Positions 23,268-44,300 of a DNA stretch of 64,000 nt are shown here, piece by piece. Every line of letters starts with the position of its first letter. Positions within the stretch are counted from its first letter, which is position 1. The stretch is taken from the NCBI GenBank assembly GCA_963422365.1, contig OY729426.1, positions 288,001-352,000 of the forward strand, written 5' to 3'. A model generated the notes under the pieces. That model was not told the origin of the DNA. It saw nothing but the letters and a program-made list of their open reading frames with translations, and did not search any database. Position numbers and translations under genes: made by a program. This stretch comes from Nitrospirales bacterium. Lineage in GTDB: Bacteria > Nitrospirota > Nitrospiria > Nitrospirales > UBA8639.

Positions 23268-26200
23268 CCACCGATACCAGCGAACAAGGCCTCGAGCGCC
23301 TCATCGTCGCCGCGTTGACAGGCAGCAGCGCGGGCCCCTCAAGCCGGCGACGAATTCGTTCATGATCCCCATGGGACCTACGGCGGCGCGGGTTACGTAC
23401 CAGGGAATTCCAACGACTACGACCGCGACCATGCCGTGGATCTGGTCAAGCTCCTGGACTTTTTTCACAAGACCCAACCCCGAGTGATTGAGCAACTGGG
23501 CTTACAAGAAGACGGCCCTAGGCGACAGCAGTTTCTCGCTCGCGTCCAAGCCGAAATCGGCAAGCGCGGCGTGGTCGACGTGCTGCGCCACGGGGTGAAG
23601 CACGGCCCGGCCCACGTGGAACTGTTTTACGGATCGCCGTCACCCGACAATCCGACGGCAATCGAACGGTTTGCCGCCAACATCTTCAGCGTAACCCGGC
23701 AACTCCGCTACAGCAAGGATGAGACTCAGCTTGCGCTCGACCTCGCGTTGTTCATCAACGGTCTGCCCGTCGCCACGTTCGAACTGAAGAACCGGCTTAC
23801 CAAGCAGACCGTTGCCGATGCCGTGCAACAGTACACGCGCGACCGTGATCCGCGTGCGCTGCTGTTTCAGTTTGGCCGCTGCCTGGTCCATTTTGCCGTG
23901 GATGATCAGGAAGTCCGGTTCTGCACGCACTTGAAAGGGAAGGAGTCATGGTTTTTACCCTTCAACCAAGGCTGGAACGACGGGGCGGGAAATCCACCGA
24001 ATCCTCACGGGGTGAAGACCGATTATCTCTGGCGCACCATTCTCACGCGTGAGGGGCTCACGGATATTATTGAAAACTACGCGCAAATCGTGGAGGAGAA
24101 GGACAAGCGCACTGGACGAAAGCAACGCAACCAGATTTTCCCACGCTTTCACCAACTCGACGTCGTACGGAGGCTTTTGGCCTCCATCCCTTCACAGGGG
24201 GTCGGCCACCGCTATCTTATCCAACATTCGGCGGGAAGCGGCAAAAGCCATTCCATCACTTGGCTTGCGCATCAATTAGTGGGATTGGAACACAACCGTT
24301 CCCCACTCTTCGACTCGGTCATCGTCATCACGGACCGCACCGTGCTGGACAAACAGATTCGGGACACCATCAAGCAGTTCGCTCAAGTGGCGGCGACGAT
24401 CGGACATGCCACGCATTCAGGCGATTTGCGAACCTTTGTCGCTAGCGGCAAGAAAATCATCATCACGACCGTGCAGAAATTTCCCTTGATCCTTGACGAG
24501 ATCGGGAACGAACATCGTGGACGAAGGTTTGCCATCCTGATTGACGAAGCGCACTCCAGCCAAGGCGGACGAACGGCCGCGAAGATGAACGTCGCATTGT
24601 CGGCAGAAGGCGTTCAAGACAAGGAGGAAACGACTGAAGACGCGATCAACCGCATGATGGAATCGCGGAAGATGCTGCCCAATGCCAGCTACTTTGCCTT
24701 TACCGCCACGCCGAAGCATAAAACCCTCGCAGTCTTCGGCGAAGCGTATCAGGAGGGAGACACCATCAAGCATCGGCCTTTCCATGCTTACACCATCAAG
24801 CAGGCGATCCAGGAGGGATTTATCCTTGACGTGTTACGACACTATACCCCCGTGGACAGCTATTACCGTCTGATGAAGACCGTGGCGGACGACCCGGCGT
24901 TTGACACGAAGACGGCGCAGAAGAAACTGCGGCGGTACGTCGAGTCGCACCAATATGCCATCCGCGCGAAAGCAGAAATCATGGTTGACCATTTCCATCA
25001 GCAGGTTTTGGCGAGACACAAGATCGCTGGAAAAGCCCGTGCGATGGTCGTAACCGGAAGCATTCAGCGCGCGATTCACTATTTTCACGCCTTCCACGAG
25101 TATCTGAGAGAGCGGAAGAGTCCGTGGCGGGCTCTCGTCGCCTTTTCCGGGGAACACGACGATGACGGCCGGAAGGTCACGGAGGCTTCGCTCAACGGCT
25201 TCCCCGGCCATACGATTACGACTCGTATTCAGGAAGATCCATATCGCTTTCTGATCTGCGCCGATAAATTCCAAACCGGCTACGATGAACCGTTGCTGCA
25301 CACGATGTACGTGGACAAGATTCTCTCCGGCATCAAGGCGGTGCAGACGCTCTCCCGCCTCAACCGCGCGCACCCGAAGAAGCATGACACGTTCGTACTG
25401 GATTTCATGAACGATTCAGATACAATCCAAGCGGCTTTTGAAGACTACTACCGCACCACGATCCTCGCCGGCGAGACCGATCCGAACAAGCTCCATGATC
25501 TCAAAGCCATCCTCGATGGCTGCCACGTCTGCGACAACACAGCGATTGATCTGTTCGTTGAACGGTACCTCGATGGGGCTGATCGTGACCGACTCGATCC
25601 GATCCTCGATGCCTGTGTCGAGACCTACATCAACACACTGGATGAAGATGGCCAGGTTGTCTTCAAAGGCCATGCGAAAGCCTTTGTGCGGACCTACGAG
25701 TTTCTCGCCGCGATCTTGCCCTTCACCAATTCGGCTTGGGAAAAACTGTCCATTTTCCTGAGCTTTTTAATTCCAAAACTCCCGGCTCCTCAGGAGGAAA
25801 ACCTTTCCACCGGTCTTCTTGAGTCCATCGACATGGACGGCTACCGGGTTGAGGTCCGGTCGACCATGGCTGTGACCCTTGCCGATGAAGACGCCGAAAT
25901 CGAGCCGATTCCCACGAGGAGCGTCAGTGGGAAACCCGAAGCGGAACTCGATCATCTCAGTCACATTCTTCGCAGCTTCAACGAGCAATTCGGCAACATT
26001 GACTGGAAAGACGCCGACAAGATTCGACGAGTCATTACCGTGGACATTCCCGCGAAAGTTGCCGCGAATACCGCCTATCAAAACGCGATGAAACATTCGG
26101 ATAAGCAGAATGCCCGAATCGAACACGACACCGTTCTTCAGGAGGTCATCATCGATCTGATGACGGACCACACGGAACTGTTTAAACAATTTAGTGACAA

Positions 26201-26270
26201 CCCGTCATTTAAGAAGTGGCTGGCCGATACGATCTTCCGAGAAACCTATCTCCCACGAGGGCCCTCGTGA
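23264..26270 (+). CDS. hsdR: Type I restriction subunit (locus 1), with an N-terminal frameshift near 23340
   Basis: MTTDTSEQGLE start at GTG 23264 is out of frame with the 944-aa body; D..FINGLP..ELK, HSAGSGKS, DEAH, FTATP, QTLSRLNR. Confidence 0.9.
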
Positions 26271-29856: not shown

Positions 29857-31514
<1,658 letters not shown>

Positions 31515-31515
<1 letters not shown>

Positions 31516-32630
31516 TGGTGGCCATCCACTATCATGCCGGACGGTTTCCGCCCGATGACCGCATCGATTGGCAGAAGCTGGTCCCGTTCATCGGGTCGGC
31601 GGCTGCGGCGCTGGCCCGCTACGACGGGATGCTGGCGGCCATTCCCAACCCCGGTGTTCTGCCGGCGCCGCTATCCACCCAGGAAGCCGTGCTTTCCTCG
31701 CGAATCGAAGGCACTCAGGCCACCATGGGGGAGGTGCTGGAGTTCGAGGCAGGACGGGAACCCGACTCGCCCGCGCGCCGCAAGGACATCCAGGAGGTGC
31801 TGAACTACCGCAGCGCCATGCGGCAGGCGGAAAAATTATTGGAAGACCTGCCGTTGTCTCAGCGCGTTATCCGCGAGGTCCACACGGTTCTGCTCGCAGG
31901 AGTGCACGGCGAGGGGAAGTCCCCCGGCGAATTTCGGCGCATTCCCAACTGGATCGGACCGCCTGGCTGCACCATTGATGACGCCACATTCGTGCCCATC
32001 GGGGCGGACAAGCTCCCAAGCGCGATGAGCATATGGGAACGCTGCATCCACGAGGGCGCCCCGGACCAGCTGGTGCAACTGGCGGTTCTGCACGCCGAGT
32101 TCGAGGCCCTGCACCCGTTCCTGGACGGCAACGGTCGCCTGGTACGCATGTTCGTGTCCTTGTTCCTGTGGCAAACCGGCCTCATCCGGGCGCCGGTATT
32201 CTATATCAGCGCCTGGTTCGAGGCGCGGCGCGACGCCTATTATGACCGCTTGCTCGCCGTCTCCCGTGACGATGACTGGACCGGCTGGTGCCGCTTTTTC
32301 CTCGAAGCGGTGCAGTCCCAGGCGAAGGACAATCTGACCAAGGCGCAGGGCATTATCAACCTGTACAACCGCATGAAAGGCGACGTGCCCAATCTGACCC
32401 ATTCCCTGTACGCCATTCGCGCTCTGGACTGGATATTCGAACGCCCCATCTTCAGGAGCGCCGATTTCGTGGATGCCGAGGGCATCTCGCAGGCTACGGC
32501 GCGGCGGATTCTGAAAATCCTGCGTGAGAGCGGCATACTCAGGGTCGTTGTCGAAGGACAGGGACGCCGGGCCGCGGTACTGGTTTTCCCCGAACTATTG
32601 AACATCGTGGATGGAGAAAACGCATTTTGA
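31515..32630 (+). CDS. Fic-family protein
   Basis: EAVLSSRIEGT, HPFLDGNGRLVR, C-terminal HTH. Confidence 0.92.
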
Positions 32631-32788
32631 TGCTCACTTGTGAGACATAACCGGGTTTGTGAATCGGTTTATGAGAAAAAACGACACACAACCCGTCTTG
32701 TCGCTCATTCATGAGCAGCAACACAGCGTCATCGGGGATCGACAGGAACGAGGAATAACAATCGACACGGACATGATCGAGGCGTCGA

Positions 32789-35161
32789 ATGATGACTGAC
32801 CGGCTGCATCTTGAGCCGAGGCACCGCCACGTGCTGGAAGCGCTGTTGCTGGAGCACCTGCCCGGCGTTGATGCCTGGGCCTATGGCAGCCGCGTCAATG
32901 GCCGAAGCCACGACGGCAGCGACCTCGACCTGGTATTACGCAGCCCCGGTCTCGTCAAAATTGACCCCTCGCAACTCGCCGAATTCAACGAAGCCGTACA
33001 GGAGTCCACCGTCCCCTTTCTCGTAGAAGCGCGGGATTGGGCGCGGCTGCCGGAGAGCTTTCAGCGTGAGATCGAGCGGAAGCATGTGGTGTTGGTGGGG
33101 AAGGATCAAGGTGCGGCAGACGACTGGCAATCGATGCCACTTGGCGACTGTATTACGATAAACGCTTCCACCTATGCGCCGAACGAAGCTTGGCCTTTCA
33201 TCAACTATCTTGACACCGGCAACATCACGCAGAATCGGATAGACGAAATTCAGTGTCTGCTTCCCGGACAGGACAAGATACCCAGCCGCGCGCGTCGGAA
33301 AGTGCAGCCGGGTGACATCGTATACTCGACGGTTCGCCCAAATCAGAAGCATTTCGGCCTGTTGAAGAATGTCCCGGAGAATTTTCTGGCTTCAACAGGT
33401 TTTACCGTCATCAGAGGAAAGAACGGCTTAGCAGACACGGATTTCGTCTACTGGTTTTTGGCGCAAGACCATGTTGTCAATCGTCTGCATACCATTGCCG
33501 AGCACAGCACGTCGGCATATCCGTCAATTAGACCGGCAGACATCGAACAATTAAGTGTAGATTTACCACCCCTCCCTGAGCAACGCGCCATCGCCCACAT
33601 CCTCGGTACGCTGGACGACAAGATCGAGCTGAACCGCCGCATGAACGAGACGCTGGAGGCGATGGCCCGCGCCCTGTTCAAGTCCTGGTTCGTCGATTTC
33701 GACCCCGTCCGCGCCAAAGCCGCCCTGCGCCGACACCGGGAGACGGCTCACGCGAACCCCCTCCCCTTGAGGGAGGGGGCAGGGGGAGGGGAGGCCCCCG
33801 CCCCGTCAACCGGCCGCTCCATGCGCGAGGGAGTCCCCCCACCCCAGCCCTCCCCCTCAAGGGGGGAGGGAGAGGAGGCGGACCAAGCCCTCCGATGGGA
33901 GGCTATCCGGCGCAGCTACAGCCCTCGGACCATCAAGCACGCCAAAATCCTCCGCCAGAACCAGACCGACGCAGAAGGGCTGCTGTGGCACTACCTCCGC
34001 AACAAGCAATTAGGCGGCCACAAGTTCCGCCGCCAGCAGCCCATCGGCCCCTACATCGCCGATTTCGCGTGCCTGTCCGAAAAGCTGCTGATCGAACTCG
34101 ATGGCAGCCAACACGCGGAACGGAAGACACACGACGAAGAACGGGATGCCTTTCTGCGTCAGGCCGGCTACCGAATCCTCCGCTTCTGGAACAATGAAGT
34201 GTTCGAGAACTGCTTCGGGGTGTTGGAGAGTATTTATGCCGCCCTGCATCCCCACCCGTCCTTCGCGGCGGAACCACAGCCACCACGATTCCCTCCCTTT
34301 GAGGAGCAGCTACCCCCGCAATCCTCTCCCTTTGAAGGGGAGCCGCCGCCACGATTCCCTCCCCCTTTGAGGGGGAGGGTCAGGGTGGGGGGAGACCCCT
34401 CCCCGAAAGACTCACGTCTTTCGACCCTCCCTCAAGGGGAGAGTGATTGGACCATCGAACGCGCCTGCGCCTATCTCGACAGGATGGACCCGGAGATTGC
34501 GGCCCTGTTCCCGGACCGCTTCGTCGATTCGGAATTGGGCGAGATACCGGAGGGGTGGGAGGTGAAAACGCTGCCTGAACTGATCGAGGTTAATCCGAAT
34601 AGATCTTTAACAAAAGGCAAGCTCGCTCCGTATCTCGACATGGCAAACATGCCAACCCAAGGCCATGTACCTGAAACGGTGACTGATCGACCCTTCGGAT
34701 CCGGTATGCGGTTCGCCAACGGAGATACGCTTATTGCCCGTATCACGCCATGTCTGGAAAACGGCAAGACTGCCTATGTTGATTTTTTGCACGATGGACA
34801 GATTGGGTGGGGATCAACCGAGTATATCGTCATGAAGCCAATACATCCACTCCCGAGCGAATTCGCCTACCTCCTGGCACGGAGTGCCAGATTCCGAGAA
34901 TTCGCCATCCAGAACATGAGCGGGACTAGCGGGCGTCAGCGCGTGCCAGCCACGGCTCTGGCAGGATTCTCAACGCCTTCGCCATCTCCGCGGGTCGGCA
35001 TTGAATTTGGGCGTTCTGTCCGGTCGCTGCTTGGACGAGCTAGATATGCGGGCGATGAATCCCGTACCCTCGCTGTCCTACGCGACACGCTGCTGCCGAA
35101 ATTCATCTCCGGCGAACTGCGGGTGGAGGATGTTGAAAAGTTCATCGGGAGGGCTGTGTGA
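32789..35161 (+). CDS. hsdS: Composite HsdS: N-terminal nucleotidyltransferase, TRD1, inserted DUF559 nuclease, TRD2
   Basis: YGSR..G....SDLDL (MNT); [49 protein letters not shown] (DUF559); [23 protein letters not shown]. Confidence 0.9.
33757..34444 (+). mobile_element. Putative repeat-flanked DUF559 module inserted in frame in hsdS
   Basis: DUF559 at ~33917-34246 with inverted repeat pairs at 33757-33791/33835-33872 and 34357-34392/34396-34444. Confidence 0.6.
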
Positions 35162-37470
35162 ATCGTATTACTCGTATATCGCATCTACGCGGTTGCGGCG
35201 TCTTCCGGAATTTCAAGTGGCCGTCAGAACTGCCGGAATTCGGACGTTACAACCTGATCTACGGCTGGAATGGGACTGGCAAGACCACACTGAGCCGATT
35301 GCTTCGCGACCTTGAACTCAGGCGGTCGCCGACAATGGGAGATGCCGTGCTGCGAGATGCCGTGCTGCGTATTGACGGCAGTGATGTCAAAGGCGAGGGC
35401 TTCCCAGAATCGAACCTTCAGGTGCGCGTCTTCAACTCGGATTTCATCAACGAGAATGTGTTTCCTGTGGGCGGCGGCATGCCGCCCATCCTCGTGCTGG
35501 GCGCGGAGAATGTTGAGAAACAGAAGGAAGTTGAACGCCTGAAGAAGAAAAACGCGAAGGCCCAATCGAATCTGGAATCCGCACGCTCTGCGGAACAGGC
35601 GGACCTTGGAAATTTGGATCAGTTCTGTATCGACCGTGCGAAGGTTATTAAAGACACGCTCCGGTCAAGCGGCCCAAACTCGTACAATAACTACGACAAG
35701 ACCAATTTTCGGAATGATGCAGAGAAGATGATCAGTGCCGGTGACAGCGCTACTCACCGCCTGACCGACGCGGAACGCGAGGGGCTACTCGCCCAGCACA
35801 AGGCGACGCCGAAGCCGAAAGTGGCAGAGATCGCCTATGTCCTGCCGGACTTCATCGCGATCACGGACGGCCTTTCGAAACTGCTGAAGGCGACGGTTGT
35901 ATCGGCGGCGATCGAAGCCTTGACAGGTAACCCCAAGCTCGCTGACTGGACCCGACAAGGTCTGGCATTGCACCAGAGTCAAAATGCCGAACGATGCCTG
36001 TTCTGCGAACAACCGTTGCTGGAGGACCGCTTGGCTGCCCTGGAGGCACATTTCAGCGCCCAATATGAGCAGTTCATTCAGCGCCTGGACAAGGAGATCA
36101 ACGAGCTAAAGGCCGCGTCTAAGGCTGCGAAAGAACTACAGTTGCCGAACAAGGCAGAGCTTTACGACGACCTCGGTCCGAAATTTCAGTCTGAGGAGGA
36201 CGGGCTGATGGCAGCGCTGGAGTCGACGCGGGGCTTTCTTGACGCCGCAGTGCAAGCGTTGGAGGACAAGAAGAGTCGGGTTTTCGAGCACGTCAAGCTG
36301 GGACTTGAAGTGCCGCTTGTGGACGCGGGCGCGGTCGAGAAGCTGAACGCGGTGATTCGAAAGCACAATCAGGTGTGCGATGACTTCGAGACTCGGGTCG
36401 AAAAGGCTCAGAGGCTGCTGGCCGCCGATACGGTCGCAGCAGATTTGGAAGAGTTCATGCGCCGCGGGGATGCCGCAGACGGTGCGACGGCCGATGTGCA
36501 AACGAAGACGCAAGAGGTACAACGCTTGAATGATGAAATCGACAGATTGGAACGGGAAATCGTTGAGTATCGCCAGCCTGCCGAGGAACTGAACAAGGAT
36601 CTCCACAAGTATCTCGGCCATGACGAGCTATACCTGGAAATCAAGGAGACCGGCTACGCAATCACACGTGGCGGTGAGCAAGCACGGTCTTTGAGTGAGG
36701 GCGAAACCAAGGCGATCGCCCTTTTGTACTTCCTGAAGTCGCTGAAAGACACGAGATTTACGCTTGCCGATGGCGTCGTCGTGCTTGACGACCCAGTGTC
36801 GAGTCTCGATGCGAACGCCTTGTTCCTCGCCTTCGGCTTTATTCGGCAACGCACGGAGAACGCGGGTCAACTGTTCGTCTTGACTCACAATTTTTCCTTC
36901 TTCCGACAGATCCGCAATTGGTTTCACCATTTGAAGGGACAGCGAAGGAACGATATAAACCAACGGCCTGCTCGATTCTTCATGCTCGACTCTACTCTGG
37001 ACGAGAACACACGGAGCAGCGCTATTCGACATCTCGATCCTCTGCTTGAGCAGTACGATTCGGAGTACCAATACCTATTCGCTCGCGTCCATCGGGCGTC
37101 CACCGAATTGCCTTCGCAGGGTCTCGAGCAGAACTATGTCCTCCCGAATATGGCCAGACGCATGTTGGAAGCCTTTCTCGCGTTCCGTCAGCCGCAGGTC
37201 TCAGGGGAGCTGTGGAAGAAACTAAAAACGGTTCCGTTCGACGAGGTAAAGAAGATCCGAATTCTCCGGTTCCTGCACACACACTCGCACAGCATTGCAG
37301 TCGGAGAACCGGAGCATGACCTGACAGCGCTCGCCGAGGGTCCGGCTGTTCTCAAAGACCTGTTGGAGATGATCGAGTCGCTGGACGAAAAGCACTTCTC
37401 GGCAATGGTGCAACTTGTAGCCCCGACGGCAGATACCGATGAGGCGGAAGACGGGGCTGTAACGGCATGA
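35158..37470 (+). CDS. rloC: RloC-like ABC ATPase/zinc-hook/HEPN anticodon nuclease
   Basis: [12 protein letters not shown] in coiled coil, [24 protein letters not shown]...HTHSH; between hsdS and hsdR. Confidence 0.8.
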
Positions 37471-37518
37471 AATCCGCATTGACCAGGCTAAGAAGATAGT
37501 GGAGGTTGTGATATAACC

Positions 37519-38670
37519 ATGCCGCGTGTCTTCATCAAGCCCGAACTGCTCCGCTGGGCGCGGGAGCGGGCCGGTATGACGCTGGATGATCTCGCGAATA
37601 GATTTGCCAAGCTCCCGGAATGGGAGAGCGGTGAGACTCAGCCCACCCTGAAACAGTTGGAAGCATTTGCCCGCGTCGTCCATGTACCGTTCGGCTACCT
37701 GTTTCTCGCCGAGCCTCCGCAGGAATCGGCGCCCATTCCAGACTTCCGCACCCTCGCTGGGCAGGCCGTGACACGCCCGAGCCCCGATCTTCTGGACATG
37801 ATCTACGCCTGTCAGGAACGGCAAGCTTGGTATCGCGACTTCGCCCGGTCCACGTGGCAACCCGAGCTCGGTTTCGTCGGCAGCGCCACGATGGAGACTG
37901 AGCCGGAGACAGCAGCGGCCCGCATCAGCGAAACACTGGACTTCGCCTCGACGGCCCGACGGCAATGCCCGACCTGGAGCGATGCCTTGCGGCTGTTCAT
38001 CCGCAAGGCTGAAGATGTCGGCGTGCTGGTCATGGTCAGTGGCGTTGTGGGGAGCAACAACCATCGTCCTCTCGATCCAGGCGAGTTTCGCGGCTTTGCG
38101 TTGTCCGACCCGCTGGCGCCGTTGGTCTTCGTCAATGGCGCGGATACAAAGGCGGCGCAGATGTTTACCCTTGCCCACGAGCTTGCACATCTGTGGCTGG
38201 GTGCGTCGGCTCTATCGAACAGCGAGGCGCTACTGAGGCCGGGGTTCAGTCGGGAGGAGGTCTGGTGCAATGCGGTGGCGGCGGAGTTGCTGCTCCCGCT
38301 CGTCGACCTCAGGCCCGAATTGCGTGACGACGAGGACCTCCCCGAAGCGCTGTCCCGGTTGGCCCAGTCCTTCAAGGTCAGCACCCTGGTGATCCTGCGG
38401 CGTCTGCTCGATGCCGGCCGGCTCGACCGCAGGCTTTTCGATATCGCCTGGGAGCAGGAAATCGCGCGTTTCCGCAAGCCCACGCAACCCGGCGGAGGCG
38501 GCGATTTCTACCGCACCACCTTGGCCCGCGTGAGCCATCGATTCGCCCGTGCGGTCGTGGGCAGCGCAAAGGAAGGACACACCCTCTATCGGGACGCCTT
38601 CCGGATGCTTGGCGTATCGAAGACCGAGACGCTCAACAGGCTCGGTCGCGAGGCCGGACCGATGGCATGA
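37519..38670 (+). CDS. XRE-HTH plus ImmA/IrrE metallopeptidase
   Basis: LRWARERAG, WESG..PTLKQL, FTLAHELAH. Confidence 0.9.
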   Translation: MPRVFIKPELLRWARERAGMTLDDLANRFAKLPEWESGETQPTLKQLEAFARVVHVPFGYLFLAEPPQESAPIPDFRTLAGQAVTRPSPDLLDMIYACQERQAWYRDFARSTWQPELGFVGSATMETEPETAAARISETLDFASTARRQCPTWSDALRLFIRKAEDVGVLVMVSGVVGSNNHRPLDPGEFRGFALSDPLAPLVFVNGADTKAAQMFTLAHELAHLWLGASALSNSEALLRPGFSREEVWCNAVAAELLLPLVDLRPELRDDEDLPEALSRLAQSFKVSTLVILRRLLDAGRLDRRLFDIAWEQEIARFRKPTQPGGGGDFYRTTLARVSHRFARAVVGSAKEGHTLYRDAFRMLGVSKTETLNRLGREAGPMA

Positions 38671-39173
38671 CCTCATATCTCCTGGACACCAACGTTTTCA
38701 TCCAGGCCAAGAACCTGCACTACGGGTTCGATATTTGTCCCGGATTTTGGGACTGGCTGGTGGAACGGAATCTGGCAGGGCTGGTGGCGAGCATCGAGAA
38801 GGTCGCCGACGAACTGCGCACCGGCGACGACGATCTGATGGCTTGGTCCAGAGGGCGAGGAGATGGTTTCTTTCTGAAGCCCGACGATGCCGTTGCGGAA
38901 GCGCTCGGGATCGTAAGCGGCTGGGCCAACGGCGCCGGCTATGAACCCGGCGCAATCTCAACCTTTCTGCAGATGGCCGACTACTGGCTTGTCGCTCATG
39001 CACTGGCCCATGACTGCATCGTCGTTACGCACGAAGTTCCCGCAGATACCATCCGCAAAATCAAGATTCCGAACGCCTGCATCGGCCTCGACCTGCGCTG
39101 CATGAATCCCTACACGATGCTACGGCAGGAGCGCGCGAGGTTCGTTTTGGAGAAAACCGGAGCGACCACTTGA
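38667..39173 (+). CDS. DUF4411 PIN-like protein
   Basis: YLLDTNVFIQAKN.HY.FDICPGFWDWL, ADYWLVAHA, VVTHE, KIPNAC. Confidence 0.88.
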   Translation: MTSYLLDTNVFIQAKNLHYGFDICPGFWDWLVERNLAGLVASIEKVADELRTGDDDLMAWSRGRGDGFFLKPDDAVAEALGIVSGWANGAGYEPGAISTFLQMADYWLVAHALAHDCIVVTHEVPADTIRKIKIPNACIGLDLRCMNPYTMLRQERARFVLEKTGATT

Positions 39174-39250
39174 TGCAGAACTTCACCGAGAACGAGGTTG
39201 AAGCCGCCGCCGCCACTGGCTGCTCGTGGATGACGTGACGGTGGACCGGA
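39173..39250 (+). pseudogene. Internally deleted hsdR 5'-end remnant
   Basis: MQNFTENEVEAAA start; TGCTCGTGGATGACGTGACGGTGGA (39221) matches TGCTCGTGGATGGCGTGACGGTGGA (41341). Confidence 0.7.
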
Positions 39251-39288
39251 ATATGTGTTTCGCTCCGAAACCCTATTGGATTTGACCT

Positions 39289-40383
39289 ATGCCCCAGCTA
39301 GAACGCCTTACCGTCCGCGGTTTCAAGTCCATCCGCGCGCTCGAAGATTTCGAGTTGCGGCCATTGAATGTGCTGCTCGGGGCCAACGGGGCCGGCAAGA
39401 GCAACTTCATCAATCTGTTCCGCATGCTGGCCGAGTTGAGCGAACAGCGCCTGCAACGATTCGTCGCCGAACAGGACGGCCCGGACGCGCTGCTGTTCGG
39501 CGGACGCAGGCAAACGGCCAGTCTGGATGCGGAATTCGTCTTCGGGAGAAACGGCTACGGCTTCTCGCTCGTACCGGCAGGCGACAGCCTGATTTTCGAT
39601 CGGGAGGAGACGATTTTTTTCGGTGATGTATGTCCACAGGTAGAACACGCGCTGGGGAGGGGCCATCGGGAAGCATTTCTGCCGGAAATGGTCGACGACG
39701 ACACCTTCGCCCCGTATGTCCTGCCTGCCATTCAAGGCTGGCGTCTCTACCACTTTCACGACACCAGCGCAACGGCGCCCGCGCGACAAGCATCGGCGGT
39801 GCGGGACAATCGTCGCTTGAAACCGGACGCAGGCAATCTGGCGCCGTTCCTGCGTTGCCTTCGGGAACGGCATGAGGCGGAATTCCAACGTATTGTCCGT
39901 ACGGTACGCATGGTGGCACCTTTCTTCGGAGACTTTTTCTACCGCAAGGAACCGGGGGAGCGCATCGAACTCGAGTGGTCGGAAGCGAACGACCCGGATA
40001 CCGTACGCGGCCCGCGCCAGCTCTCCGACGGCACCCTGCGCTTCATCTGCCTGACGACGCTGCTTCTGCAACCGGCCCGTCTACAACCGACTACCATCCT
40101 CATCGACGAACCCGAGATCGGGCTGCATCCTTACGCGCTGGCTGTGCTCGGCGCCCTGCTGCGGCAAGCCAGCGAAACAAAGCAGCTCATCGTCGCCACG
40201 CAATCGGTTGAACTGGTCCATGAGTTGGCACCGGAGGATGTGGTGGTGGTCGATCGCGAAAACGGCACGTCCGTGTTCGAACGGCTGGATTCGGAACGCT
40301 TGGGCGAATGGCTGAAGGACTACGCGCTGGGCGATCTGTGGAAGATGAATATCCTCGGCGGGAGGCCAAGGCGCGATGGTTGA
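39289..40383 (+). CDS. ABC/AAA_21-type ATPase
   Basis: GANGAGKSN, LSDGTLRF, IDEPEIGLHP, ATQS. Confidence 0.9.
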   Translation: MPQLERLTVRGFKSIRALEDFELRPLNVLLGANGAGKSNFINLFRMLAELSEQRLQRFVAEQDGPDALLFGGRRQTASLDAEFVFGRNGYGFSLVPAGDSLIFDREETIFFGDVCPQVEHALGRGHREAFLPEMVDDDTFAPYVLPAIQGWRLYHFHDTSATAPARQASAVRDNRRLKPDAGNLAPFLRCLRERHEAEFQRIVRTVRMVAPFFGDFFYRKEPGERIELEWSEANDPDTVRGPRQLSDGTLRFICLTTLLLQPARLQPTTILIDEPEIGLHPYALAVLGALLRQASETKQLIVATQSVELVHELAPEDVVVVDRENGTSVFERLDSERLGEWLKDYALGDLWKMNILGGRPRRDG

Positions 40384-41065
40384 GGTAATCGTCGTCTGCG
40401 AAGGCCGGACCGAGGAGACCTTTGTGCGTGAGGTGCTAGGCGCAGAGCTTGCGCACCGGAGTGTATTTCTCCAGCCGCGATTGATGACGACCTCCCCGGG
40501 GCATCGCGGCGGTGCGCTCAACCGCGACAGGGTCGTGCGCTATCTGTGTACTACGTTGCGAGAACGCCGGGATGTCTATGTCACCACGCTGTTCGATCTG
40601 TACGGCTTGCCTGGCGGTTTTCCTGGACAAGGCAGCTCCGACGGAAAGGCCGACCCCATCGAACGCGCGGTATCCATCGAGCAGGACTTGCATGAAATCG
40701 TGGTGCGGAGCGCCGAATGCCGACCGGACCGATTTTTACCCCACGTTCAACCCCACGAGTTCGAATCCCTTCTTTTTTCCGACGTCGCACAATTCGCGGA
40801 AGTAGAACCGGACTGGCAGCCCTTCTTGGGCGTATTGCGGAATATCCAACAAACGGTCCCAAGCCCGGAACACATCAACGACGGTCAGGATACGCACCCT
40901 TCGGCTCGCTTAAGGCAAGTTTTGGGCGCTTCATACCAAAAAGTATTGCACGGTGCCGCCGTATCGGCCCAAATCGGCCTCGAACGCATTCGCAACGAGT
41001 GCCGTCATTTCGGGGAATGGCTGGCCCGGTTGGAAGAACTTCCTCCGCTGCGTGAGGACAACTAG
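40376..41065 (+). CDS. DUF4276-family (TOPRIM-like) protein
   Basis: [37 protein letters not shown]. Confidence 0.8.
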
Positions 41066-41069
41066 CGCC

Positions 41070-44300
<3,231 letters not shown>

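What the first reader, a model, noticed from the sequence alone, without database searches (positions are those of the whole stretch)
33757..34444. DUF559 nuclease bracketed by inverted palindromic repeats, inserted in frame in HsdS: candidate nuclease/repeat mobile system
Seen: between FDPVRAKA and [18 protein letters not shown] lie about 230 extra codons with no stop. They contain a complete DUF559 (Vsr-like) domain. On each side is an inverted pair of hairpin repeats of consensus CCCTCCCC-TTGA-GGGGAGGG-NNN-GGGTGGGGG, translated as Pro/Gly-rich linkers. Known: REP/RAYT systems have the same layout (nuclease flanked by REP doublets) but use an HUH transposase. Inference: DUF559 may be the cognate enzyme that spreads this repeat family. 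The module stays tolerated by being stop-free in frame, giving a four-domain HsdS that tethers an extra nuclease to the R-M complex.
Basis: partly seen in the sequence, partly recalled or inferred. Interest (0 to 1): 0.8.

Follow-up and report, generated by a model that had tools for sequence, protein, structure and literature searches.

The report
Triplex-ended nuclease cassette inside HsdS
A restriction-enzyme specificity gene carries, in frame, a small nuclease gene bracketed by inverted copies of a long-unexplained repeat known to fold into three-stranded DNA; the same gene-plus-repeat unit recurs across many bacteria, including E. coli, and is likely a selfish element whose nuclease spreads those repeats.

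Summary
A 691-bp cassette (33757-34447) sits in frame in the variable central loop of a 790-aa HsdS (MNT + TRD1 + DUF559 + TRD2) and is bracketed by inverted repeat doublets. The repeats are BoxC/PIT/TM intrastrand-triplex motifs, not REPs: the tail co-varies with the stem as a third strand (57/77 perfect, 21% when swapped). Hairpins flank both sides of 76/101 and 20/26 DUF559 loci, against about 4% of control windows and 0/29 Vsr genes. Repeat load tracks DUF559 across 61 relatives and 9 E. coli chromosomes. HsdS alleles occur filled, scarred and empty with the same TRD pair. The nuclease is under purifying selection yet is lost in frame, and separate DUF559 lineages entered the same loop. 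Sister cassettes sit at unrelated loci, with homology ending at the repeats. Best reading: a selfish nuclease/triplex-repeat element that HsdS tolerates and spreads during TRD shuffling. Cleavage and mobility are untested. No target duplication was found, and this genome is repeat-poor. I found no paper linking DUF559 to these repeats. The scan has noted this family many times on other DNA, including hsdS.

The parts
32789..35161 (+). hsdS fusion ORF, 790 aa: MNT + TRD1 + inserted cassette + TRD2
32873..33109 (+). N-terminal MNT/Polbeta nucleotidyltransferase domain (aa 29-107); common in homologs with or without the insert
33119..33721 (+). TRD1 and first conserved helix, up to FDPVRAKA
33757..34447 (+). 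DUF559 cassette from outer repeat to outer repeat (691 bp), in frame in the central variable loop
33757..33791 (+). Triplex-motif unit U1 (stem-loop plus G-rich third strand pointing inwards); codes [10 protein letters not shown]
33836..33870 (-). Triplex-motif unit U2, inverted against U1; within 2 substitutions of the TMECO pattern
33935..34246 (+). DUF559 (YcjD-like, Vsr-fold) nuclease domain, aa 383-486, with E396, D425, E436, D438, H442 and D449 present
34290..34342 (+). Two decayed half-copies of the hairpin
34357..34391 (+). Triplex-motif unit U3; within 2 substitutions of the TMECO pattern
34396..34447 (-). Outer right unit U4 (stem, second hairpin, tail), ending in the GAGTGAT end shared by the clade
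34448..34504 (+). Lineage-specific host helix [19 protein letters not shown], kept in scar alleles
34505..35158 (+). Conserved LFP segment, TRD2 and second helix
31234..31268 (+). Solo triplex motif (exact TMECO match) in frame in hsdM; a relative (L024) has a whole DUF559 cassette at this site
42339..42371 (-). Solo triplex motif (exact TMECO match) in frame in hsdR ([11 protein letters not shown])

Best explanation
The insert is a DUF559 nuclease gene bracketed by inverted BoxC-type triplex-motif repeats and read in frame inside a variable HsdS loop, and it is likely a selfish element whose nuclease nicks at or beside the folded repeats and so promotes copying of the repeats and of itself. 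Shown: the layout; the repeat-gene association across phyla; covariation of the third strand with the stem; movement of the unit between unrelated loci; separate entries into the same HsdS loop; purifying selection on the nuclease; in-frame loss. Inferred: (1) the enzyme recognises the hairpin or triplex on transiently single-stranded DNA; (2) a nick, followed by host repair or recombination, pastes repeats or the whole cassette at new sites, often beside an existing repeat, which would explain ragged junctions and no target duplication; (3) insertions into genes survive only in a stop-free frame and a surface loop; (4) in hsdS the cassette lies in the conserved segment between the two TRDs, so it rides TRD shuffling and horizontal transfer of R-M islands, and HsdS works as usual with the nuclease hanging on disordered linkers.
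For: Bracketing: hairpins within 250 nt on both sides in 76 of 101 loci (87 up, 87 down) against 23 of 602 distal windows; tails mostly point towards the gene. 20 of 26 held-out phylum loci against 5 of 140 windows. Vsr genes 0 of 29. Genome level: rho 0.78 over 61 genomes; 27 of 29 with DUF559 have 3 or more repeats against 9 of 32 without. E. coli chromosomes with ycjD have 23, 29, 29 and 19 TM copies; those without have 1, 11, 2, 6 and 7. A TM lies about 170 nt downstream of ycjD. Cognate pairing: Mantel rho 0.32, 0 of 999 permutations. Triplex: stem/stem/tail states T-A-A 33, C-G-G 25, C-A-A 1; 57 of 77 units perfect against 21% with swapped tails and 22 of 77 in parallel orientation. Unit mobility: free-standing sisters of the hsdS cassette lie beside lspA, pilM/pilO, radical-SAM and other genes, and homology to the hsdS copies is confined to 521-624 bp. 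One intergenic site is empty, repeat-only or cassette-filled across 30 congeners. A single origin of hsdS-embedded domains is rejected (AU p 3e-4; L198, L284). Selection: dN/dS 0.20 in hsdS, 0.15-0.17 free-standing, about 0.9 for the linkers; predicted catalytic residues 96-100% conserved in 115 alleles. Dispensable: the window's TRD pair occurs in 10 filled, 3 scar and 18 empty alleles; 60 TRD combinations among 87 filled alleles. AF2: HsdS core mostly pLDDT 80-97, linkers about 30-40.
Against: No biochemical data exist for any repeat-flanked DUF559. No target-site duplication at 28 loci, and ccm junctions are heterogeneous. Seven of 61 genomes have 10-146 repeats but no DUF559 at E<=1e-15 (G019 has 146), and five have DUF559 but fewer than 5 counted repeats, including this genome (4). 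The cassette's own subtype occurs nowhere else here, and the genome's second DUF559 is frameshifted. Genomes and loci are kin and were chosen by similarity, so the p-values overstate; the E. coli split is close to one lineage contrast. 25 of 101 loci are not bracketed on both sides, and E. coli ycjD has repeats only downstream. Holder et al. found no stable triplex in duplex DNA or by in vivo footprinting (PMC4666352). Caulobacter VsrA, a DUF559 protein, was interpreted as a repair enzyme (PMC12907096).
Confidence: 0.62

Rival explanations
1. DUF559 is a host-serving Vsr-like repair or structure-resolving nuclease. It is kept where triplex repeats are abundant because it processes them. The repeats spread by replication errors or other enzymes, and the gene moves only passively by recombination between repeats.
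For: Vsr fold, and the active-site spacing of Caulobacter VsrA (E73/D102/D115/H119) matches E396/D425/D438/H442. VsrA deletion suppresses SOS in a methylase mutant. Repeat-rich genomes without DUF559 exist. ycjD is single-copy and conserved in 3378 of 5426 E. coli genomes.
Against: A host gene need not sit between inward-facing repeats on both sides, in fixed orientation, in many phyla. True Vsr genes never do (0 of 29). Genomes hold 1-4 copies at shifting sites. Each clade carries its own repeat subtype.
Confidence: 0.18
2. The fusion is a functional R-M accessory: HsdS tethers a nicking or mismatch nuclease to its target sites, which adds restriction power or repair near methylated DNA.
For: Purifying selection inside hsdS and intact catalytic residues. 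The fusion is widespread, and cassettes also occur in hsdM and a further methylase-type gene. The locus is a defence island.
Against: The same TRD pair occurs without the domain. In-frame deletions remove it, for example P0019, which keeps only its C-terminal remnant, and P0158 and P0174, which keep only the repeats. The selection equals that on free-standing copies. The domain hangs on disordered repeat-coded linkers. R-M loops also take solo repeats and GIY-YIG inserts.
Confidence: 0.1
3. It is a free-standing homing endonuclease of the Vsr/EDxHD type that cuts scar or empty hsdS alleles and is copied in by homologous recombination; the repeats are incidental.
For: Same nuclease superfamily as I-Bth0305I. 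Filled and scar states are interleaved on a host tree (36 changes, with weak support). Several hsdS alleles co-occur in one sample.
Against: The 104-aa domain has no separate DNA-binding region. Cassettes occupy many unrelated sites. No intron or intein was found. TRD shuffling alone can give the interleaving.
Confidence: 0.1

Closest known systems
BoxC / PIT / TMECO intrastrand triplex repeats (Holder et al. 2015, PMC4666352; read abstract, parts 1, 4, 5 and 7 of 10, and passages)
   Same: Same pattern (C-rich arm, loop, G-rich arm, 3-nt loop, G-rich third strand) and inverted doublets. The hsdM and hsdR copies match TMECO exactly; two hsdS units match within 2 substitutions.
   Different: Described as always intergenic in E. 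coli K-12, with no mobility gene found near the sites and origin left open; the paper does not mention ycjD. Here the units flank a nuclease gene and are translated.
REP/REPIN with RAYT (Nunvar et al. 2010, PMC2817692; abstract only)
   Same: An enzyme gene flanked by inverted repeats, repeat-enzyme co-evolution, and genome-level correlation between enzyme and repeat load.
   Different: The enzyme is a PD-(D/E)XK Vsr-fold nuclease, not an HUH tyrosine transposase. The repeats have no GTAG/CGTC tag and carry a third strand. Whole cassettes sit in frame inside genes.
EDxHD (Vsr-like) homing endonucleases, I-Bth0305I (PMC3239194; passages)
   Same: Vsr-type catalytic domain in a selfish element.
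   Different: No N-terminal DNA-binding domain, no intron or intein, no single cognate target.
Rickettsia palindromic elements and intragenic REPs/MITEs (PMC2229807, PMC3184786, PMC3733652; passages)
   Same: Palindromic repeats translated in frame in tolerant loops.
   Different: Those are non-autonomous; here a whole nuclease domain is carried inside the host protein.
Vsr and Caulobacter VsrA (PMC12907096; passages and first part of the Discussion); N. gonorrhoeae 3HRL
   Same: Fold and active-site residues; 3HRL matches at E 1e-27.
   Different: Vsr genes are not repeat-flanked. Whether vsrA is flanked could not be checked.

Membership tests
BoxC/PIT/TM repeats | TMECO sequence pattern | tested here: met
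   Exact at 31234 and 42339; within 2 substitutions at 33836 and 34357; U1 and U4 are variants outside that limit
BoxC/PIT/TM repeats | Third strand antiparallel to the purine arm (G*G, A*A, T*A triads) | tested here: met
   57 of 77 units perfect against 21% with swapped tails; covariation 33/25/1
BoxC/PIT/TM repeats | Physical triplex formation | not testable with these tools
   Shown in vitro for TMECO oligonucleotides only (PMC4666352)
REPtron (REP/RAYT) | HUH Y1 tyrosine transposase | tested here: not met
   Only DUF559/PRK09767 match the insert
REPtron (REP/RAYT) | GTAG or CGTC tag next to the hairpin | tested here: not met
   Absent from units U1-U4 by inspection
REPtron (REP/RAYT) | Gene flanked by inverted repeats that are also dispersed, with load tracking the gene | tested here: met
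Classical IS / MITE system | DDE-type transposase | tested here: not met
   No such domain in the cassette
Classical IS / MITE system | Target-site duplication | tested here: not met
   None of 3 bp or more at 28 loci; old insertions may have lost them
Classical IS / MITE system | Terminal inverted repeats with conserved ends | tested here: met
   ATCACTCCCCCC-type ends at 28 loci with unrelated flanks
Intein or intron homing endonuclease | Splicing element around the nuclease | tested here: not met
   No intein family in Pfam; no Rfam match at E<=0.5 in 31000-43000
Intein or intron homing endonuclease | Cleaves the empty allele | not testable with these tools
   Needs an assay
DUF559 / YcjD family | Profile match with conserved acidic and His residues | tested here: met
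   140 bits against cut-off 20.6; below the 218-bit YcjD equivalog cut-off; residues conserved
Type I HsdS | Two TRDs joined by conserved helices, within an hsdM-hsdS-hsdR locus | tested here: met

The most novel reading that the evidence does not exclude
DUF559/YcjD is the missing mobilising enzyme of BoxC/PIT triplex repeats. It would define a class of bacterial mobile element whose ends are read as three-stranded DNA by a Vsr-fold nuclease, and which can live translated inside host proteins without splicing, using the shuffled core of hsdS as a vehicle between phyla.
Probability: 0.5. Interest if true: 0.9.

Novelty: categorically new. Interest (0 to 1): 0.76.

Why it matters
BoxC/PIT/TM repeats have been known since the 1990s and are linked to genome instability, but their origin and spread are stated as unanswered (PMC4666352). 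A candidate partner enzyme, present as ycjD in E. coli K-12, makes this testable with a deletion strain and a 100-residue protein. If right, it adds a mobile-element chemistry (Vsr-fold nuclease, triplex ends) and gives a role to a large domain of unknown function. It would also explain many Pro/Gly loops and apparent DUF559 fusions in R-M and other proteins as parasites rather than accessory domains. This locus adds the hsdS angle: a selfish insert placed in the segment that TRD shuffling conserves.

Tried and rejected
Assembly artefact: rejected. RNA or protein splicing: no Rfam or intein match. Expression: no RNA holder listed, so expression and the full-length product are untested. A single-sequence AF2 model of the domain failed (pLDDT 49.5) and was not searched; in the full model the domain is only low to moderate confidence. 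Exact junctions and target duplication: none found. DUF559 at the hsdR repeat site: 0 of the top 120 homologs carry PF04480, but the query favoured short loops. Tree of host segments to order gains and losses: too few columns to resolve. The careful DUF559 tree did not finish, so quick trees were used. The left doublet does not fold better than shuffles as a whole (z -1.4); the right one does (z -4.3). Literature: nine completed searches plus one search found no paper linking DUF559/YcjD to BoxC/PIT/TM or to flanking repeats. The nearest hint is a table row showing DUF559 genes enriched among inverted-repeat-overlapping CDSs (odds ratio 14.3; PMC9881135). The Geobacter papers describe in-frame multicopy repeats without an endonuclease. 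Chen and Shapiro 2003 (CIR repeats) was not held; Hoyne/Maher, Bachellier and Bergler are known only as cited. Subscription papers and all supplements (including Holder's tables of genes beside TM sites) were not seen and may bear on novelty.

Full report
Observation. The ORF at 32789-35161 encodes 790 aa: an MNT domain, TRD1, a complete DUF559 domain (aa 383-486, E 2.6e-41) and TRD2. It lies between hsdM (29857) and hsdR (40953) in a defence island of 61% GC against 53% for the genome. The cassette runs 33757-34447; only the coding frame is stop-free. Each side has a tail-to-tail inverted doublet. The fourth unit has a second hairpin between stem and tail. Contigs from four public runs show no indel. 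An alignment-based AF2 model gives a confident HsdS core that matches solved HsdS structures, with the insert on disordered linkers and the nuclease domain at low to moderate confidence. The domain matches N. gonorrhoeae 3HRL at E 1e-27.

Alleles of this site. Of 214 homologs from two searches (the second used a scar allele as query, so proportions are not population frequencies), 115 carry DUF559 in the loop, 54 have a short scar in the same lineage-specific loop, 40 have the ordinary short loop and 5 could not be parsed. Among 80 metagenome loci, 39 had a 17-aa loop and one (L198) a different DUF559 cassette. Some scars are clear deletions: P0019 keeps the C-terminal end of DUF559, and P0158 and P0174 keep only repeat-coded peptides. 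The window's TRD pair (60% identity clusters) occurs in 10 filled, 3 scar and 18 empty alleles, and 87 filled alleles span 60 TRD combinations. The closest allele, in a Pseudomonadales MAG, is 91.6% identical over 32795-34563 and stops at TRD2. Contigs from the same samples join other sequences at 33566 and 34560-34564, the TRD boundaries. So the cassette sits in the segment conserved during TRD exchange and crosses phyla with it (inference).

Selection. In 19 of 23 hsdS loci that could be parsed, median dN/dS is 0.20 for DUF559 (80 pairs), 0.12 for the HsdS flanks and 0.92-0.96 for the linkers; free-standing clades give 0.15 and 0.17 (linker alignments are less reliable). E396, D425, E436, D438, H442 and D449 are 96-100% conserved in 115 alleles. 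Four of these match the spacing of the residues predicted for Caulobacter VsrA. A domain that is conserved while present but lost in frame fits a selfish element better than a needed module (inference).

Association with the repeat. A generic hairpin detector finds units within 250 nt on both sides of 76 of 101 DUF559 loci (109 loci after removing two weak non-cognate hits and two duplicates; 8 lacked full flanks), against 23 of 602 distal windows, with tails mostly facing the gene. These loci were the 30 returned of 64 matches in relatives and the best 80 of 528 in genome contigs. A held-out set gave 20 of 26 against 5 of 140 (its query included the linkers). Vsr genes gave 0 of 29. Across 61 relatives, DUF559 count correlates with the load of three repeat patterns (rho 0.78). 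Seven genomes have 10-146 repeats without DUF559, and five have DUF559 with fewer than 5 repeats, this genome among them. Repeat similarity follows protein similarity (Mantel rho 0.32); a gene's own downstream repeat is the best match to its upstream one in 28 of 97 loci and in the top five in 58. Kin are not independent, so significance is overstated.

Identity of the repeat. The NCBIfam hit to the YcjD family and my recollection that boxC lies near fabI led to E. coli K-12. There ycjD has a decayed hairpin at its 3' end and a full unit about 170 nt downstream, but none upstream. Holder et al. define this motif as TMECO (formerly BoxC/PIT), show a triplex in vitro but not in duplex DNA or in vivo footprints, report instability at TM loci, found no mobility genes nearby, and leave the origin open. 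The hsdM and hsdR copies match TMECO exactly. Across distinct units the stem and third strand change together (33 T-A-A, 25 C-G-G, 1 C-A-A), and 67 of 72 positions opposite an A hold A or T. 57 of 77 short-spacer units form perfect triads, against 21% with swapped tails (maximum 36% in 1000 shuffles) and 22 of 77 in parallel orientation. In nine E. coli chromosomes, those with ycjD hold 19-29 copies and those without hold 1-11; this is close to a single lineage contrast (PMC12817139).

Mobility as a unit. Free-standing copies nest inside the hsdS clade, three of them as sisters of hsdS copies with support of 97-100. They lie beside lspA, pilM/pilO, radical-SAM, PIN and other genes, two of them just upstream of hsdM. 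Their DNA homology to hsdS copies covers only 521-624 bp, and the ends are conserved at 28 loci with no target duplication. One intergenic site in 30 congeners holds a cassette in 4, repeats only in 11 and nothing in 11; one has an unrelated stretch and 3 lacked the anchor, one of which shows a cassette. Different DUF559 lineages occupy the same HsdS loop in L198 and L284; one clade for all 14 hsdS-embedded domains is rejected (AU p 3e-4, quick tree, nested free-standing rows left out). A relative has a whole cassette where the window's hsdM has a solo unit.

Mechanism and status. The most likely reading is a selfish nuclease/triplex-repeat element; recognition, nicking and copying are inferred, not shown. 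It works like REP/RAYT but fails membership on enzyme and tag. It fails the IS tests on transposase and target duplication, and the homing-endonuclease tests on splicing element and single target. The parts are known separately; I found no paper joining them (searches listed under Tried and rejected). In this genome the copy looks like an imported passenger: its subtype has not spread and the other DUF559 gene is frameshifted. Earlier notes of this scan report the same family on other DNA, and 64 notes hold the BoxC/ycjD words. I reached the BoxC link, before seeing those; they are not independent support.

Noticed in passing
window 29857-44300: Defence island of 61% GC: hsdM, Fic (SoFic-like), hsdS fusion, AAA_13 protein (PADLOC PDC-S06), HTH-IrrE plus DUF4411, AAA plus DUF4276 (HEC-01), hsdR. 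A second hsdR lies at 23436-26270.
   Followed up: partly
window 32873-33109: MNT nucleotidyltransferase domain fused to the HsdS N-terminus; frequent in homologs whether or not they carry the insert. No HEPN partner was looked for.
   Followed up: no
G000:C1:578365-578607 (L002): Second DUF559 cassette between two genes, frameshifted, with a half repeat upstream whose G-rich tail abuts the start codon.
   Followed up: yes
free-standing DUF559 loci: In 15 of 43 measurable loci the start codon lies within 3 nt of the end of the upstream G-rich tail, which could double as a ribosome-binding site; untested.
   Followed up: partly
P0224, P0236, P0241: HsdR homologs with a GIY-YIG domain inserted in frame at two different loops, bounded by LPAP and ARQAG peptides; possibly a parallel nuclease/repeat cassette.
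   Followed up: no
L172, L175, L177, L186; P0003-P0005: The same HsdS loop takes other repeat-like peptides in frame (PSTSSGQA, ALSKVE, GRGGFETRPY), so it is a general insertion hot spot.
   Followed up: no
window 42339-42371 and HsdR homologs: The in-frame PSPQPSPSGRG loop is shared by most of the top 120 HsdR homologs and in some is expanded to 79-98 aa.
   Followed up: partly
L095, L031, L287: DUF559 cassettes in frame in a TrpF-like gene (named from recalled motifs), a methylase-type gene and a second HsdM site.
   Followed up: no
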